From contig OZ024757.1 in NCBI GenBank assembly GCA_964016885.1, positions 30,752,001 to 30,816,000 on the forward strand: a stretch of 64,000 nt of DNA. Direction: 5' to 3'. The position numbers and the translations under genes are program-made. This document shows positions 22,463 to 64,000 of the stretch, piece by piece. This DNA comes from Eledone cirrhosa (Eukaryota). The notes under the pieces were generated by a model that was not told the DNA's origin, did not search any database, and was given only the letters and a program-made list of their open reading frames with translations. Positions within the stretch are counted from its first letter, which is position 1; each line of letters begins with the position of its first letter.

Positions 22463-22763
22463 AAATAAAGGATTATGAGTTCATGCAATTGACTTATGTT
22501 TCGTCACTATATATACATATATATATATATATAGGAAACGAGTCAGGACCCCGACGGCTGAGATCCGACCATTTCGACCGCTAGATCCGACTAGCTGTTG
22601 AAATGGTCGGAGCTCAGCCATCGGGGTCCTGACTCTTTTCCTATTACCCACTCTACTGCCCTAAATATCGAGTACTCTGGTGCATTATGGTCCACCTGGT
22701 TTCTTACCACACTTTCTTTGTTTAGTTTACATATATGTGTGTGTGTACATATATATATATATA

Positions 22764-23337: not shown

Positions 23338-23789
23338 ACCCGCCACACACACTACACACACATGCCACACACACTACACACACGCCACACACATATATAT
23401 ATATATATATATACATATACTCTTTTGATAGCTGTTCCAGCTATCCGGCTGAGACCATGCTGGAGCACCGCCCTTGAAAAATTAAAATCTTCCTATGTGT
23501 AGACCGCTGGCCAAGATCTTCACCATCTCCAAAACCTACCACAAGGCCACAGAACGTTATTAGTAGGACCAGTGCCACCCTCAAAGGAATCTAGGCAGCT
23601 GATTAGGGCACAGATCTTAGAAAGGGACTTTACTGAACCTCAAACACACACTCACACGCACTCACACACACCCATACACACACACACTCACACACATACA
23701 CACACACTCGCATAGGTACAGGAAAAAAGAGTGCTCTATGTAGGCTACAGAGCTTATTAGTTATGTAATAAACAACATAAGATAATTAT

Positions 23790-23847
23790 TTCATTTACCA
23801 GTGGTTTCTTGAAAGCAGATATATCTGTTTTCAGTCGTCAGAATGAA
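23790..23847 (-). ncRNA. Type I hammerhead ribozyme in the left arm of a palindrome, GUA triplet
   Basis: Reverse complement: ttcatt-CTGACGA-ctgaaaacagatatatctgctttcaa-GAAAC-cactg-GTA-aatgaa. Confidence 0.8.
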
Positions 23848-23909
23848 TAAAAAACATGGTGTTTTAATAAATATGGATTCCATATTTAATAAAAACACCA
23901 TGTTTTTTA

Positions 23910-23965
23910 TTCATTCTGACGACTGAAAACATATATATGCTTTCAAGAAACCACTGGTAAATGAA
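23910..23965 (+). ncRNA. Type I hammerhead ribozyme in the right arm of the same palindrome
   Basis: ttcatt-CTGACGA-ctgaaaacatatatatgctttcaa-GAAAC-cactg-GTA-aatgaa. Confidence 0.78.
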
Positions 23966-24124
23966 ATAATTATCTTATATTGTTTATTACATAACTAATA
24001 AGCTCTGTAGCCTACATAGAGCACTTTTTTTTTCTGTACCTTTCCGACGGAATTACTTCATTTACATATATACTTATATATTATGGAATACTGTTGGCTT
24101 GCTACAATACTTTCTATACCTTTC

Positions 24125-25119: not shown

Positions 25120-25768
25120 TTGCTGCTGCTGGAACAGCAACTGTTATTAATAATACTACAACAACAACAATTACTAACAATACAACATCAGCAACAACAA
25201 CTACAGTAACAACATCAACAGCAAATACAAGTACTATTACAGCAACAACAACAACAACAACAACTAGAATTAATTGACTGTCTTTGATGTGAATAATGTT
25301 AATCATTGTGAAGTTGATTGAAGAGAGAGAGAGAGAGTTAAAAAGAGAGGAAACGACATAGGGAGAGGGGCAGGAGAGAGAGAGATAGACAGATATAGAG
25401 AGGGAGGAAGGAAATGGAGACAGATATAGAGAAAGGTAAAGACATAGAGAGAGGGGAGGCAGAGAGAAGGAAAGAGGAGAGGGACATAGAAAGAGGTGAA
25501 GGAGAGAGAGAGAGAGAGAGACAGACATAGTGAGATAGGAAGGAGAGAGAGAGAGAGACGGGTGTATATATATATATATATATATATATAGGAAATAGCC
25601 GTCGAAATGTCCAGAAATAGCCGTCGAAATGTCCAGAAATAGCCGTCGAAACGGCTCGAGCTCTGCCGTTGGGGTCTTGAACATTTTCCTATTACCCACT
25701 CTACTACCCTAAGTATTGAGTACGCTGGTGTGTTATGGTCCATCTGGTTCCTTACCACACTTCCTTCG

Positions 25769-25809
<41 letters not shown>

Positions 25810-25847
25810 ATTAAATAAATGGAAAACTATATTTATAAAACCATATT

Positions 25848-25913
25848 TATTTCATTATATATATTTCGGGGATATCATATTAACAATATGCTATGCCTTC
25901 ATCAGACAAAATA
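25848..25913 (-). ncRNA. Minimal type I hammerhead-like motif with a palindromic loop in place of stem III
   Basis: Reverse complement: tattttgt-CTGATGA-aggcatagcatatt(gtt)aatatgatatcccc-GAAA-tatata-TA-atgaaata. Confidence 0.65.
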
Positions 25914-25989
25914 CAATATAAACAGTTTTATAGACAAATAGGTTCGACATACCGTTATAACACCGACTTCATTTTAAATATAACTTTCC

Positions 25990-26029
<40 letters not shown>

Positions 26030-26274
26030 AGTTAGGAACTCAAAATAGTCTCTTACAACAAAATAGCTCTAAGAAAGAGATATTTCTGAGACGTATATTA
26101 TAATAGAATATAAAAGAGAAGCGAACACAGATATATAGATATATGTGTTCAAATCGTAAGGGACCTGATTGACTAAGGTGAAAAGAATACTAACTATAGA
26201 CAATAGGGTTCGCTTGTCTCAATTTAAGAAAAAATTAAGAAAATAAATACAAACCGGAATTGTGGTAACTACCA

Positions 26275-26349
26275 ATCACCCAGACAACTTGTTGTTTCGC
26301 AAAGTTAATTGTGAATAGAAATACCAACCCAAGCTCATCAGTGGGTGAT
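26275..26349 (-). ncRNA. Type I hammerhead ribozyme, canonical core, GUC triplet; same family as 63832
   Basis: Reverse complement: atcaccca-CTGATGA-gc...gc-GAAAC-aac(aa)gtt-GTC-tgggtgat. Stem I has 8 bp. Confidence 0.85.
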
Positions 26350-26575
26350 GAATTAGTAGCCTAGACACATCTAAGTATGCTATATTTAAAATATAGCATA
26401 CATGGCATCCTAGCGAGTCTCACAAACCGACACCACTAGAAATAGCAGCCAGGTTTACTCGACATTTGAAATAGCTCAACAAATTAACGGAGCCGAATAT
26501 ATATATATTGAGTTAGGAACTAAAAATAGTCTCTTACAACAAAATAGCTCTTATATATATATATATATATATATA

Positions 26576-26641
<66 letters not shown>

Positions 26642-27299: not shown

Positions 27300-29092
27300 G
27301 ATGTTAAGTAACTGATAGTACAAGACATCCCCGCCCCCTGGACAGGACACCAGTCCATCACAGAGTTTAACCCCATTTTATTAGCATTAAGCAACTGATA
27401 GTACAAGACATCCCCCTGGATAAGACACCAGTCCATCACAGAGTTTAACCCCATTTTATTAGCATTAAGCAACTGATAGTACAAGACATCCCCCTGGATA
27501 AGACACCAGTCCATCACAGAGTTTAACCCCATTTTATTAGCATTAAGCAACTGATAGTACAAGACATCCCCCTGGATAAGACACCAGTCCATCACAGAGT
27601 TTAACCCCATTTTATTAGCATTAAGCAACTGATAGTACAAGACATCCCCCTGATAAGACACCAGTCCATCACAGAGTTTAACCCCATTTTATTAGCATTA
27701 AGCAACTGATAGTACAAGACATCCCCCTGGATAAGACACCAGTCCATCACAGAGTTTAACCCCATTTTATTAGCATTAAGCAACTGATAGTACAAGACAC
27801 CCCCCTGGATAAGACGCCAGTCCATCACAGAGTTTAACCCCATTTTATTAGCATTAAGCAACTGATAGTACAAGACATCCCCCTGGATAAGACGCCAGTC
27901 CATCACAGAGTTTAACCCCATTTTATTAGCATTAAGCAACTGATAGTACAAGACATCCCCCTGGATAAGACACCAGTCCATCACAGAGTTTAACCCCATT
28001 TTATTAGCATTAAGCAACTGATAGTACAAGACATCCCCCTGGATAAGACACCAGTCCATCACAGAGTTTAACCCCATTTTATTAGCATTAAGCAACTGAT
28101 AGTACAAGACATCCCCCTGGATAAGACACCAGTCCATCACAGAGTTTAACCCCATTTTATTAGCATTAAGCAACTGATAGTACAAGACATCCCCCTGGAT
28201 AAGACACCAGTCCATCACAGAGTTTAACCCCATTTTATTAGCATTAAGCAACTGATAGTACAAGACATCCCCCTGGATAAGACACCAGTCCATCACAGAG
28301 TTTAACCCCATTTTATTAGCATTAAGCAACTGATAGTACAAGACATCCCCCTGGATAAGACACCAGTCCATCACAGAGTTTAACCCCATTTTATTAGCAT
28401 TAAGCAACTGATAGTACAAGACATCCCCGCCCCCTGGATAAGACGCCAGTCCATCACAGAGTTTAACCCCATTTTATTAGCATTAAGCAACTGATAGTAC
28501 AAGACATCCCCCTGGATAAGACGCCAGTCCATCACAGAGTTTAACCCCATTTTATTAGCATTAAGCAACTGATAGTACAAGACATCCCCCTGGATAAGAC
28601 ACCAGTCCATCACAGAGTTTAACCCCATTTTATTAGCATTAAGCAACTGATAGTACAAGACATCCCCCTGGATAAGACACCAGTCCATCACAGAGTTTAA
28701 CCCCATTTTATTAGCATTAAGCAACTGATAGTACAAGACATCCCCCTGGATAAGACACCAGTCCATCACAGAGTTTAACCCCATTTTATTAGCATTAAGC
28801 AACTGATAGTACAAGACATCCCCCTGGATAAGACACCAGTCCATCACAGAGTTTAACCCCATTTTATTAGCATTAAGCAACTGATAGTACAAGACATCCC
28901 CCTGGATAAGACACCAGTCCATCACAGAGTTTAACCCCATTTTATTAGCATTAAGCAACTGATAGTACAAGACATCCCCCTGGATAAGACACCAGTCCAT
29001 CACAGAGTTTAACCCCATTTTATTAGCATTAAGCAACTGATAGTACAAGACATCCCCCTGGATAAGACACCAGTCCATCACAGAGTTTAACT
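27300..29092. repeat. Highly homogeneous 78-bp minisatellite, about 23 copies
   Basis: Unit ccccctggataagacaccagtccatcacagagtttaaccccattttattagcattaagcaactgatagtacaagacat; this explains the 26-aa repeat ORFs. Confidence 0.97.
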
Positions 29093-29721: not shown

Positions 29722-30628
29722 AGCCACAGTCTAATGACTGCAACTAGTAAAGGAACAGTAATCCAGCATGGCCACAGTCTAATGAATGCAACCAGTAAAG
29801 GAACAGTGCTTCAGCATGGCCAGTCTTATGACTGCAAACTAGTAAAGGAACAGTGCTCCAGCATGGCCACAGTCTTATGACTGCAAACTAGTAAAGGAAC
29901 AGTGCTCCAGCATGGCCACAGTCTAATGACTGCAAACTAGTAAAGGAACAGTGCTCCAGCATGGCCACAGTCTTATGACTGCAAACTAGTAAAGGAACAG
30001 TACTCCAGCATGGCCACAGTCTAATGACTGCAAACTAGTAAAGGAACAGTGCTCCAGCATGGCCACAGTCTAATGACTGCAAACTAGTAAAGGAACACTA
30101 CTCCAGCATGGCCACAGTCTAATGACTGCAAACTAGTAAAGGAACAGTGCTCCAGCATGGCCACAGTCTAATGACTGCAAACTAGTAAAGGAACACTACT
30201 CCAGCATGGCCACAGTCTTATGACTGCAAACTAGTAAAGGAACACTGCTCCAGCATGGCCACAGTCTTATGACTGCAAACTAGTAAAGGAACAGTGCTCC
30301 AGCATGGCCACAGTCTAATGACTGCAAACTAGTAAAGGAACACTGCTCCAGCATGGCCACAGTCTTATGACTGCAAACTAGTAAAGGAACAGTGCTCCAG
30401 CATGGCCACAGTCTAATGACTGCAAACTAGTAAAGGAACACTGCTCCAGCATGGCCACAGTCTTATGACTGCAAACTAGTAAAGGAACAGTGCTCCAGCA
30501 TGGCCACAGTCTAATGACTGCAAACTAGTAAAGGAACAGTGCTCCAGCATGGCCACAGTCTTATGACTGCAAACTAGTAAAGGAACAGTGCTCCAGCATG
30601 GCCACAGTCTTATGACTGCAAACTGGTA
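29722..30628. repeat. 49-bp minisatellite, about 18 copies
   Basis: Unit ccagcatggccacagtctaatgactgcaaactagtaaaggaacagtgct. Confidence 0.95.
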
Positions 30629-30859
30629 ATAGAATATAATAATAATTAAAGACCAATATTTGACAATGTTGTAATTTATTACATAAATAATTAATGGATG
30701 TTTTTGTTTATTTGTAGTTGAAGAGTTTAGCTGTTGTTATGGCTTGTTTATAAAGTCTTTCATTTTATTGTAGTGAACTGTGAAAATTAAATGAGATGCT
30801 ATAGCTATAACTTTAAGGTGTGGCACAATGACTGACACATACACAGACAGATAGATATG

Positions 30860-41069: not shown

Positions 41070-41380
41070 TGGAGGTGCCATGGCTTAGTGGTTAGAGCAT
41101 TGGCCTTGCAATCGAAAGGTTGTGAGTTCAATTCTCAGACCGGGTGATGTGTTGTTTCCTTGAGCAAGACACTTTATTTCACATTGCTCCAGTTTACTCA
41201 GCTGTAGAAATGCAAAGTGGTCGTGGAAGTGCCACGGCAAAAAAGCACCCAGCACTCACTGTAAATGAGGTTGGTGTTAGGAAGGGCATCCAGCTGTAGA
41301 AATCAAGCCAGAATCAGTTTCCGTCCCACCCTTGCAAGCAGGGAAAAAGCGGACGTAAAATGAAATGATGAATGATGATG
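41070..41380 (+). mobile_element. tRNA-derived SINE, family 2 (CORE-like centre, ATG-repeat tail)
   Basis: A-box TGGCTTAGTGG, B-box GAGTTCAATTC, then tgtttccttgagcaagacactttatttcacattgctccag and the tail ggtgttaggaagggcatccagctgtagaaa...atgatg. Other pieces at 48360-48580 and 56553-56863. Confidence 0.8.
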
Positions 41381-63552: not shown

Positions 63553-63597
<45 letters not shown>

Positions 63598-63831
63598 TAT
63601 AAAAGAGAGATAAACACAGATATATAGATATATACATATATGTGTTCAAATTGTAAGGGACATTCTCCTTGAATTTGTTGAGCTAATTTAAATGTTGAGT
63701 AAACTTGGCTGGTATTTTTAGTAGCATACGTTTTATGAGACATGCTAGATTCTGATACCATCTGCGTTATTTTATATACGCATACTATTCAGTCTTCTGA
63801 GATACTTAGAAGTGAAGGGTTTACTAATGTT

Positions 63832-63911
63832 ACACCCACTGATGAGCAATAGAATTGGTAATTCCCTATCACTAAATTGCGAAACAGCATTACCAAAAGC
63901 TGTCTGGGTGT
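63832..63911 (+). ncRNA. Type I hammerhead ribozyme, canonical core, GUC cleavage triplet
   Basis: acaccca-CTGATGA-gcaat...attgc-GAAAC-agc(attaccaaaa)gct-GTC-tgggtgt. All three stems pair and the core is complete. Confidence 0.88.
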
Positions 63912-64000
63912 CAGACAGTTGTCGTAATTTTGGTTTGTATTTCTTTTCTTAATTTCTTTTAAATTGAGTCTGGCAAACCAATTGTTCATAGTTAGTATTT

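What the first reader, a model, noticed from the sequence alone, without database searches (positions are those of the whole stretch)
26027..26551. 481-bp HHR-containing unit with 44-bp terminal direct repeats (retrozyme-like)
Seen: ttgagttaggaact(c/a)aaaatagtctcttacaacaaaatagctct occurs at 26027-26070 and again at 26508-26551, an offset of 481 bp. (TA)n flanks both sides. A canonical GUC hammerhead lies on the minus strand at 26275-26349, and a perfect palindrome gtatgctatattt/aaatatagcatac lies near 26375-26401. No ORF. Inference: terminal redundancy is what reverse transcription of a ~480-nt circular RNA running slightly past one round would leave, as proposed for retrozymes.
Basis: partly seen in the sequence, partly recalled or inferred. 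Interest (0 to 1): 0.8.

Follow-up and report, generated by a model that had tools for sequence, protein, structure and literature searches.

The report
Hammerhead mini-retroelement riding Penelope machinery
This is one truncated copy of a scattered, non-coding, roughly 490-base repeat family that carries a hammerhead ribozyme fold and lands in TA microsatellites with the footprints of Penelope-like jumping genes, which likely copy it; the 44-base end repeat is just the start of a second unit, and whether the RNA template is a circle remains untested.

Summary
In detail: 43/44-bp repeat at offset 481, a type I GUC hammerhead on the minus strand at 26275-26349, (TA)n on both sides, no ORF. The 44 bp are not a fixed terminal repeat. 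The unit is one copy of a dispersed ~493-nt family; across 81 insertions the tandem overlap runs from 11 to 319 nt. The family shows the Penelope-like (PLE) footprint: 110 of 128 outer 3' ends fall at two sites 80 nt apart, mostly against (TA)n; 5' ends scatter; 47 of 81 insertions carry an inverted arm, and 26 of 30 such insertions use one site at each end. Intact Hydra-type PLEs in this genome end the same way. Hammerhead stem III covaries across sister subfamilies. No 5' break lies at the cleavage site (0 of 146), so the template was uncut: a circle or an uncleaved multimer. Shared-variant tests do not separate these. No RNA data were found. Verdict: a new member of a known kind (animal non-LTR retrozyme / non-autonomous PLE), with a clear genomic case for PLE twin priming. 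The scan noted similar elements on other DNA.

The parts
26027..26507 (-). One full monomer (481 nt here, 493 nt in the family reference L002) of the hammerhead repeat family F1; RNA sense is the minus strand
   Evidence: 93.9% identity to L002 monomer
26508..26551 (-). 3' part of a second, 5'-truncated monomer (pseudo-LTR); truncation point at 26551
26275..26349 (-). Type I hammerhead; predicted cut after GUC, between 26283 and 26282
26094..26104 (-). Inner 3' terminus T1 of the family (TA-rich); not used as an end in this copy
   Evidence: 48 of 128 outer 3' ends
26015..26093 (-). 80-nt tail between T1 and the outer terminus T2, with a 7-bp hairpin at 26027-26043; this copy ends at T2 and lacks the short family spacer before (TA)n
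   Evidence: 62 of 128 outer 3' ends at T2
26167..26183 (+). Stretch matching the stem II/GAAA part of the PLE-A hammerhead, i.e. complementary to it in the element's RNA (16/17 in L002, 14/17 here)
   Evidence: 7 of 5000 shuffles for L002
26375..26401 (.). 13-bp-arm palindrome, perfect only in this copy and one other occurrence
25993..26027 (.). (TA)n target at the 3' end
26552..26638 (.). (TA)n at the truncated 5' end

Best explanation
The unit is a 5'-truncated insertion of a dispersed, non-coding ~493-nt hammerhead repeat family with two fixed 3' ends, inverted arms and (TA)n targets, likely copied by target-primed reverse transcription by the protein of an autonomous Penelope-like element, most likely of Hydra type. 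Shown: family, architecture, ends, targets, ribozyme covariation, intact candidate helpers in the genome. Inferred: a transcript of more than one unit, with its hammerheads uncut, is bound by the PLE protein; the GIY-YIG nuclease nicks (TA)n; reverse transcription starts at T2 or T1 and runs through the unit into the next until it falls off (here 44 nt into the second unit); in over half the events the second target strand primes a second cDNA at the other site, and the two cDNAs join by microhomology to give the inverted arm. The hammerhead is predicted to process multimeric transcripts into monomers and circles as in other animal retrozymes. Circle versus linear multimer as template is open (about 35:65, both may occur).
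For: 2,617 candidate places, 40 scored, 83-97% identical outside the window copy; 98 exact hits of a 22-nt hammerhead word, 0 for the reversed control. 81 unique insertions: 128 outer 3' ends, 48 at T1, 62 at T2, 18 elsewhere; 34 5' ends scattered; TA-rich flank beyond 84 of 110 T1/T2 ends versus 12 of 34 5' ends, P 2e-5. With a hammerhead-centred query, which does not select for the tail, 26 of 29 ends in 18 new insertions fall at T1/T2. 47 of 81 inverted; T1+T2 in 26 of 30 with two canonical ends, P 3e-5; 17 of 43 arm pairs are mutually non-nested, so neither is a plain fold-back copy of the other; 13 single-orientation copies end at T1. Junction overlaps 0-6 nt in 28 of 47. PLE-A, -B, -D, with DKT and CxCX5C motifs and intact frames of 784 and 894 codons for B and D, end at two sites in (TA)n downstream of a hammerhead: 28 of 29, 55 of 68, 15 of 19; spacing 66, 80, 104 nt versus 80 here. 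Stem III: 3 of 5 pairs change on both sides across subfamilies. 0 of 146 5' breaks at the cut site, 98 segments span it. Partial tandems, inverted arm and one-sided tail are the published PLE pattern (PMC8557442, PMC3846280); two internal RT starts, extension of both strands and use of uncleaved RNA were shown in vitro (PMC11167929).
Against: No autonomous PLE shares extended sequence with the monomer: sense-strand alignments to the 3' regions of PLE-A, -B and -D are at shuffle level and blastn finds nothing against the Neptune-type loci; only four or five PLE families were examined. The Neptune-type family also ends at two sites in (TA)n, so the helper clade is not settled. The cut site lies 189 nt from T1 versus 19-53 nt in the PLEs. 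Only 1 of 81 insertions (L267) and one pair among the 98 pattern hits has two same-strand hammerheads, so a source locus is not evident. The sample is the top-scoring, longer copies. Self-cleavage and expression are untested.
Confidence: 0.8

Rival explanations
1. One reading: the template is always a covalently closed monomer circle made by hammerhead cleavage and ligation, and each tandem overlap is reverse transcription running past one round. Compatible with PLE mobilisation; it differs only in template form.
For: Seamless head-to-tail junction that is not the cut site; 0 of 146 breaks at the cut site; colinear runs up to 813 nt; tandem parts share 21 of 283 rare variants versus 187 of 19,278 between insertions; L267 shares 11 variants across all three segments; this copy lacks the family spacer at both its inner junction and its end, seen as a clean loss in 2 of 46 inner and 3 of 58 outer junctions (post hoc). 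Circular folds are stable, z -3.8 to -8.0 in sense. Circles are shown for coral, mussel and axolotl retrozymes (PMC7229834).
Against: A single circle predicts identical tandem parts at insertion, yet they share fewer rare variants than inverted arms do (21/283 versus 67/408; bootstrap by insertion P 0.01-0.05), and at 17 of 48 three-way sites the inverted arm agrees with only one tandem part. This is confounded: inverted arms share as much with the upstream unit (19/130) as with the downstream one (28/162), which points to an orientation effect such as gene conversion. In vitro, a PLE used unprocessed linear RNA (PMC11167929).
Confidence: 0.35
2. The copies are truncated 3' ends (pLTRs) of an autonomous PLE not yet found, not a self-propagating non-coding family.
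For: Same insertion pattern as autonomous PLEs; searches score only the top 40 candidates; earlier scan notes found this situation in other genomes (unchecked).
Against: In 52 adjacent same-strand segment pairs the sequence upstream of the unit is the end of another unit; no held F1, F2, F3 or F4 locus shows a PLE frame continuous with the unit; three sister families keep the same closed 493-526-nt unit.
Confidence: 0.07
3. Inverted arms arise by fold-back self-priming of one cDNA, not by twin target priming.
For: 26 of 43 arm pairs are nested; L017 is a symmetric fold; self-priming was proposed for PLE inversions (PMC3846280).
Against: 17 of 43 pairs are non-nested, 10 of them with canonical ends on both sides; T1 is used alone in 13 copies.
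Confidence: 0.2
4. The 44 bp are a long target-site duplication or a local duplication.
For: The two copies are 43/44 identical.
Against: The 44 bp are the family's own tail sequence, present in dozens of other loci, and the overlap length varies from 11 to 319 nt.
Confidence: 0.01
5. Endogenised viroid-like RNA replicon with ribozymes in both polarities.
For: Both polarities fold better than shuffles; the plus strand carries a hammerhead-like half.
Against: No complete core on the plus strand of the unit; branched, not rod-like, 65% paired.
Confidence: 0.03

Closest known systems
Animal non-LTR retrozymes (Cervera and de la Pena 2020, PMC7229834; Li, Clavereau and Pollet 2026, 10.64898/2026.07.22.740005)
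   Same: Non-coding, low-GC, head-to-tail units with one type I hammerhead each; thousands of dispersed copies; coexistence with PLEs; solo monomers and long arrays (sister family F3 has a 50-unit array).
   Different: 493-526 nt, above the 170-400 nt of the 2020 paper but inside the 51-972 nt of the 2026 preprint; F1 is almost all 0.4-1.6-mers with inverted arms, only 1 of 81 with two same-strand ribozymes; no extended homology to a PLE pLTR found; the passages read do not describe fixed double 3' ends or inversions for retrozymes.
Endonuclease-bearing Penelope-like elements, Hydra clade (Craig et al. 2021, PMC8557442; Arkhipova et al. 2013, PMC3846280; Frangieh et al. 2024, PMC11167929)
   Same: 5' truncation, partial tandem pseudo-LTR, inverted arm, tail at one end only, (TA)n target, hammerhead upstream of the 3' ends.
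   Different: No ORF; tail 80 nt, not the 30-40 nt described (the Hydra-type PLEs here have 66-104 nt); ribozyme 189 nt from the first end; stable 5-bp stem III, not the short palindromic helix of most PLE hammerheads (PMC4209133).
Non-autonomous Chlamys PLEs such as MRC1 (PMC8557442)
   Same: Non-coding, form pLTRs and head-to-tail multimers, once mistaken for LTR elements.
   Different: Those generally share 3' sequence with their helper and lack canonical hammerheads.
Plant LTR retrozymes (as described in PMC7229834 and the 2026 preprint)
   Same: Non-autonomous, hammerhead-bearing, direct repeats at the ends.
   Different: Type III hammerhead inside each LTR, 4-bp TSD, Gypsy helper; here type I, single, outside the repeat, and the repeat length is not fixed.

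Membership tests
Non-autonomous PLE-type element | [quoted passage not shown] | tested here: met
   44 positive overlaps of 11-319 nt among 52 adjacent pairs; 34 scattered 5' ends
Non-autonomous PLE-type element | Inverted 5'-truncated arm adjacent to the insertion | tested here: met
   47 of 81 insertions; the window copy itself has none
Non-autonomous PLE-type element | Optional tail, present at one end only (two RT start sites) | tested here: met
   T1/T2 80 nt apart; mixed in 26 of 30
Non-autonomous PLE-type element | Microsatellite or AT-rich target | tested here: met
   84 of 110 T1/T2 ends against TA-rich DNA
Non-autonomous PLE-type element | No coding capacity, with autonomous PLEs in the same genome | tested here: met
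Non-autonomous PLE-type element | 3' sequence shared with an identified helper (common, not universal: 24 of 57 Xenopus families) | tested here: inconclusive
   None found against PLE-A, -B, -D and a Neptune-type family; other PLE families not examined
Animal non-LTR retrozyme | Type I hammerhead with intact core in the unit | tested here: met
   36 of 53 F1 spanning segments pass a strict core pattern
Animal non-LTR retrozyme | Small, low-GC, non-coding unit | tested here: met
   481-526 nt, GC 30-35%; no ORF
Animal non-LTR retrozyme | Tandem arrangement with two or more consecutive hammerheads | tested here: inconclusive
   Window copy has one; F1 has 1 such locus of 81 (L267); sister family F3 has arrays up to 50 units
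Animal non-LTR retrozyme | Self-cleavage in vitro | not testable with these tools
   structure and covariation only
Animal non-LTR retrozyme | Expression as linear and circular monomer RNA | not testable with these tools
   no RNA holder listed
Plant LTR retrozyme | Type III hammerhead within each LTR, fixed LTR length | tested here: not met
   type I, outside the repeat, variable overlap
Plant LTR retrozyme | PBS, PPT and 4-bp TSD | not tested
   TSD cannot be read inside (TA)n; PBS and PPT not searched
Hydra clade (candidate helpers PLE-A, -B, -D) | C-terminal nuclease, DKT, CxCX5C, (TA)n target, hammerhead | tested here: met
   motifs read against the description in PMC8557442 section 11; PLE-B has a non-canonical core; no tree built, Pfam gives no hit for B and D

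The most novel reading that the evidence does not exclude
The element recruits or disarms its helper by RNA-RNA pairing: its transcript carries a 16-17-nt stretch complementary to the stem II/GAAA core of the PLE-A hammerhead (7 of 5000 shuffles, predicted duplex -28.6 kcal/mol), kept in subfamilies F1, F2 and F4, which would let a protein-free circle or multimer dock onto the PLE ribonucleoprotein without sharing its 3' sequence. The plainer reading is a relic of a captured inverted PLE end or chance: the stretch is degraded in F3 and in the window copy, varies in F2, and the match was found post hoc among 24 comparisons.
Probability: 0.08. Interest if true: 0.75.

Novelty: new member of a known kind. 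Interest (0 to 1): 0.4.

Why it matters
Papers propose that animal retrozymes are mobilised by PLEs from co-occurrence and pLTR similarity, and say the mechanism is unresolved. This family gives a direct genomic footprint: two fixed RT start sites, one used at each end of inverted insertions, matching intact Hydra-type PLEs in the same genome. It defines a small testable substrate (a 493-nt RNA, two predicted start sites, a (TA)n target, candidate proteins) for asking whether circles or uncut multimers are the template. The class of element itself is known.

Tried and rejected
Rfam: no gathering-level hammerhead hit. Expression: no RNA holder listed; runs X1-X3 are contigs of one sample, of unknown kind, that hold family variants and inverted joints but say nothing on RNA. 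Helper search: four protein searches of the genome and sister-family searches found no ORF-linked copy of the unit. Apparent pile-up of 5' ends near the cut site in F2/F4 was an alignment artefact of the different stem III or lay inside stem III. Template jumping between cleaved monomers: variant sharing does not drop 5' of the cut site, 7/48 versus 28/162. The F3 50-unit array as proof of rolling-circle synthesis: units share variants in non-adjacent subsets, pairwise 0.6-5%, so later array turnover blurs its origin. Tracking of PLE-A hammerhead variants by the antisense stretch: a GGG variant exists in both but may be ordinary mutation; inconclusive. Extra conservation of the hammerhead within F1 is slight (0.976-0.987 versus 0.948-0.974). 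L020 and L022 were dropped from the F1 counts as near-duplicates of L019. Literature searches found no paper on such a family; PMC13282606 has no mention of hammerhead or ribozyme. The word octopus in these searches is my guess from genome size and microsatellite content, not a tool result. Supplements were not read; those of the 2026 preprint are closed and may list related families.

Full report
Observation. The repeat, its 481-bp offset, the (TA)n flanks, the minus-strand type I hammerhead at 26275-26349 and the lack of an ORF are all present as described. The palindrome has 13-bp arms around one base and is perfect in only 2 of 60 family occurrences. Rfam gives only a weak hammerhead hit, E 6.

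A dispersed family. The window lies in a 3.0-Gb assembly. The 525-bp unit has 2,617 candidate places, of which 40 were scored; a 22-nt hammerhead word occurs exactly 98 times, the reversed control never. From I assembled 81 unique insertions of this family (F1), after dropping L020 and L022 as near-duplicates of L019. The natural monomer is 493 nt (L002); copies differ about 3.5% from the column majority. Sister families share the layout: F2 (73-90% to F1), F4 and F3 (526 nt). F3 forms arrays of up to 50 units between (TA)n tracts. All counts come from top-scoring copies and favour long ones.

The 44 bp are a random truncation. Reading the hammerhead strand as sense, the left end of the window copy is the 3' end. 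Among 52 adjacent same-strand segment pairs, 44 overlap, by 11 to 319 nt. Of 128 outer 3' ends, 48 lie at T1 (window 26094) and 62 at T2 (26015-26027), 80 nt apart; 34 outer 5' ends scatter. TA-rich DNA follows 84 of 110 T1/T2 ends but 12 of 34 5' ends (P 2e-5). A hammerhead-centred query, which does not select for the tail, gave 26 of 29 ends at T1/T2 in 18 further insertions. F2 and F4 show the same two ends (44 of 47 and 44 of 49; tail-anchored queries).

Inversions. 47 of 81 insertions have an inverted arm. Where both outer ends are canonical, 26 of 30 combine T1 with T2 (P 3e-5 against independent choice). Of 43 simple arm pairs, 17 are mutually non-nested and 26 nested; T1 alone ends 13 single-orientation copies. 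Junction overlaps are 0-6 nt in 28 of 47. Partial tandems, an inverted 5'-truncated arm and a tail at one end are the published PLE pattern (PMC8557442, passages and section 11; PMC3846280, passages). PMC11167929 (parts 1-2 of 4, whole results) showed that a PLE protein extends both target strands, starts at two internal sites that define the tail, is predicted to be a dimer, and uses uncleaved RNA. I infer twin target-primed reverse transcription; fold-back priming may account for some nested cases.

Candidate helpers. Flanks of the copies led to abundant autonomous PLEs. PLE-B has intact 784-codon frames in 3,531-bp tandems, PLE-D an 894-codon frame. They and PLE-A carry the DKT and CxCX5C motifs given for the Hydra clade; no tree was built and Pfam gave no hit for B or D. 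Their copies end at two sites in (TA)n below a hammerhead: 28 of 29, 55 of 68 and 15 of 19, spaced 66, 80 and 104 nt. A young Neptune-type family also ends at two sites in (TA)n, about 40 nt apart (clade name from my reading of its motifs). None shares extended sequence with the monomer, so the helper is inferred from behaviour, not identified.

Ribozyme. In 18 natural copies from F1, F2 and F4, 93.8% of cells pair and 3 of 5 stem III pairs change on both sides (few independent events). 36 of 53 F1 spanning segments pass a strict core pattern. MFE folding does not place the active junction. Circular monomers fold better than shuffles, z -3.8 to -8.0 in sense and -2.1 to -4.9 in antisense, 30 shuffles each.

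Circle or multimer. No 5' break of 146 lies within 3 nt of the cut site, and 98 segments span it; three overlaps reach past the upstream cut site. The template was therefore uncut. Tandem parts share 21 of 283 rare variants against 187 of 19,278 between insertions, so they come from one lineage. They share fewer than inverted arms (67 of 408; bootstrap P 0.01-0.05), and 17 of 48 three-way sites split the tandem parts, which leans against a single circle. But inverted arms share 19 of 130 with the upstream unit and 28 of 162 with the downstream unit, so orientation, possibly gene conversion, confounds the test. For the circle: L267 shares 11 variants across all segments, and the window copy lacks the family spacer at both junctions. 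Only 1 of 81 insertions has two same-strand ribozymes; the window copy cannot release a monomer by double cleavage. No RNA holder was listed.

An unexplained detail. The plus strand at 26167-26183 matches the right half of the PLE-A hammerhead: 16/17 in L002, 16/16 in one F4 copy, 14/17 here; 7 of 5000 shuffles. It is a relic, chance, or an antisense docking site; F2 varies there and F3 has mostly lost it.

Comparison and verdict. It works like an animal non-LTR retrozyme (PMC7229834: abstract, sections 13, 14, 17; preprint 10.64898/2026.07.22.740005: parts 1-3 of 5) inserted by PLE machinery. It meets the structural tests for a non-autonomous PLE-type element; retrozyme membership is probable at family level, with cleavage and circles untested. 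Searches found no description of this family. Earlier scan notes report similar elements in other genomes and none for this sequence or genome. New member of a known kind; interest 0.4.

Noticed in passing
window 63582-64000: A second relative (F2 type) with an intact hammerhead at 63831-63912 (+) and an inverted arm ending at T1.
   Followed up: partly
window 25808-25992: Another (TA)n-embedded repeat with its own type I hammerhead at 25848-25913 (-), palindromic stem III; a second copy at 48848-48913; found in 14 of 326 held loci.
   Followed up: partly
window 25592-25775, 9725-9917, 22592-22722, 57201-57399: Four 3'-end stumps of PLE-B type, two with short inverted arms.
   Followed up: partly
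window 23788-23967, 45631-45692, 48131-48185, 48604-48658, 56466-56520: Further hammerhead-like motifs; ten in all in 64 kb, including an inverted pair at 23788-23967 and a PLE-D-type end at 45631.
   Followed up: no
L121 4700-4810: The very young PLE-B family has a hammerhead-like fold whose core reads UUGAGAAGA in place of CUGANGA in nearly all copies, with a long stem II; activity unknown.
   Followed up: partly
L261-L263 (G000:C2, 383.78-383.81 Mb): A 26-kb array of exactly 50 whole F3 units bounded by (TA)n, mean pairwise divergence 4.5%, with signs of array turnover.
   Followed up: yes
L177, L178: PLE-C and PLE-D proteins carry long low-complexity insertions between RT thumb and nuclease.
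   Followed up: no
window 41074-41142: tRNA-like match just above Rfam's threshold, probably a SINE head.
   Followed up: no
window 27304-29091 and 29723-30629: Homogeneous minisatellites, 78 bp x 23 (98%) and 49 bp x 19 (95%).
   Followed up: no
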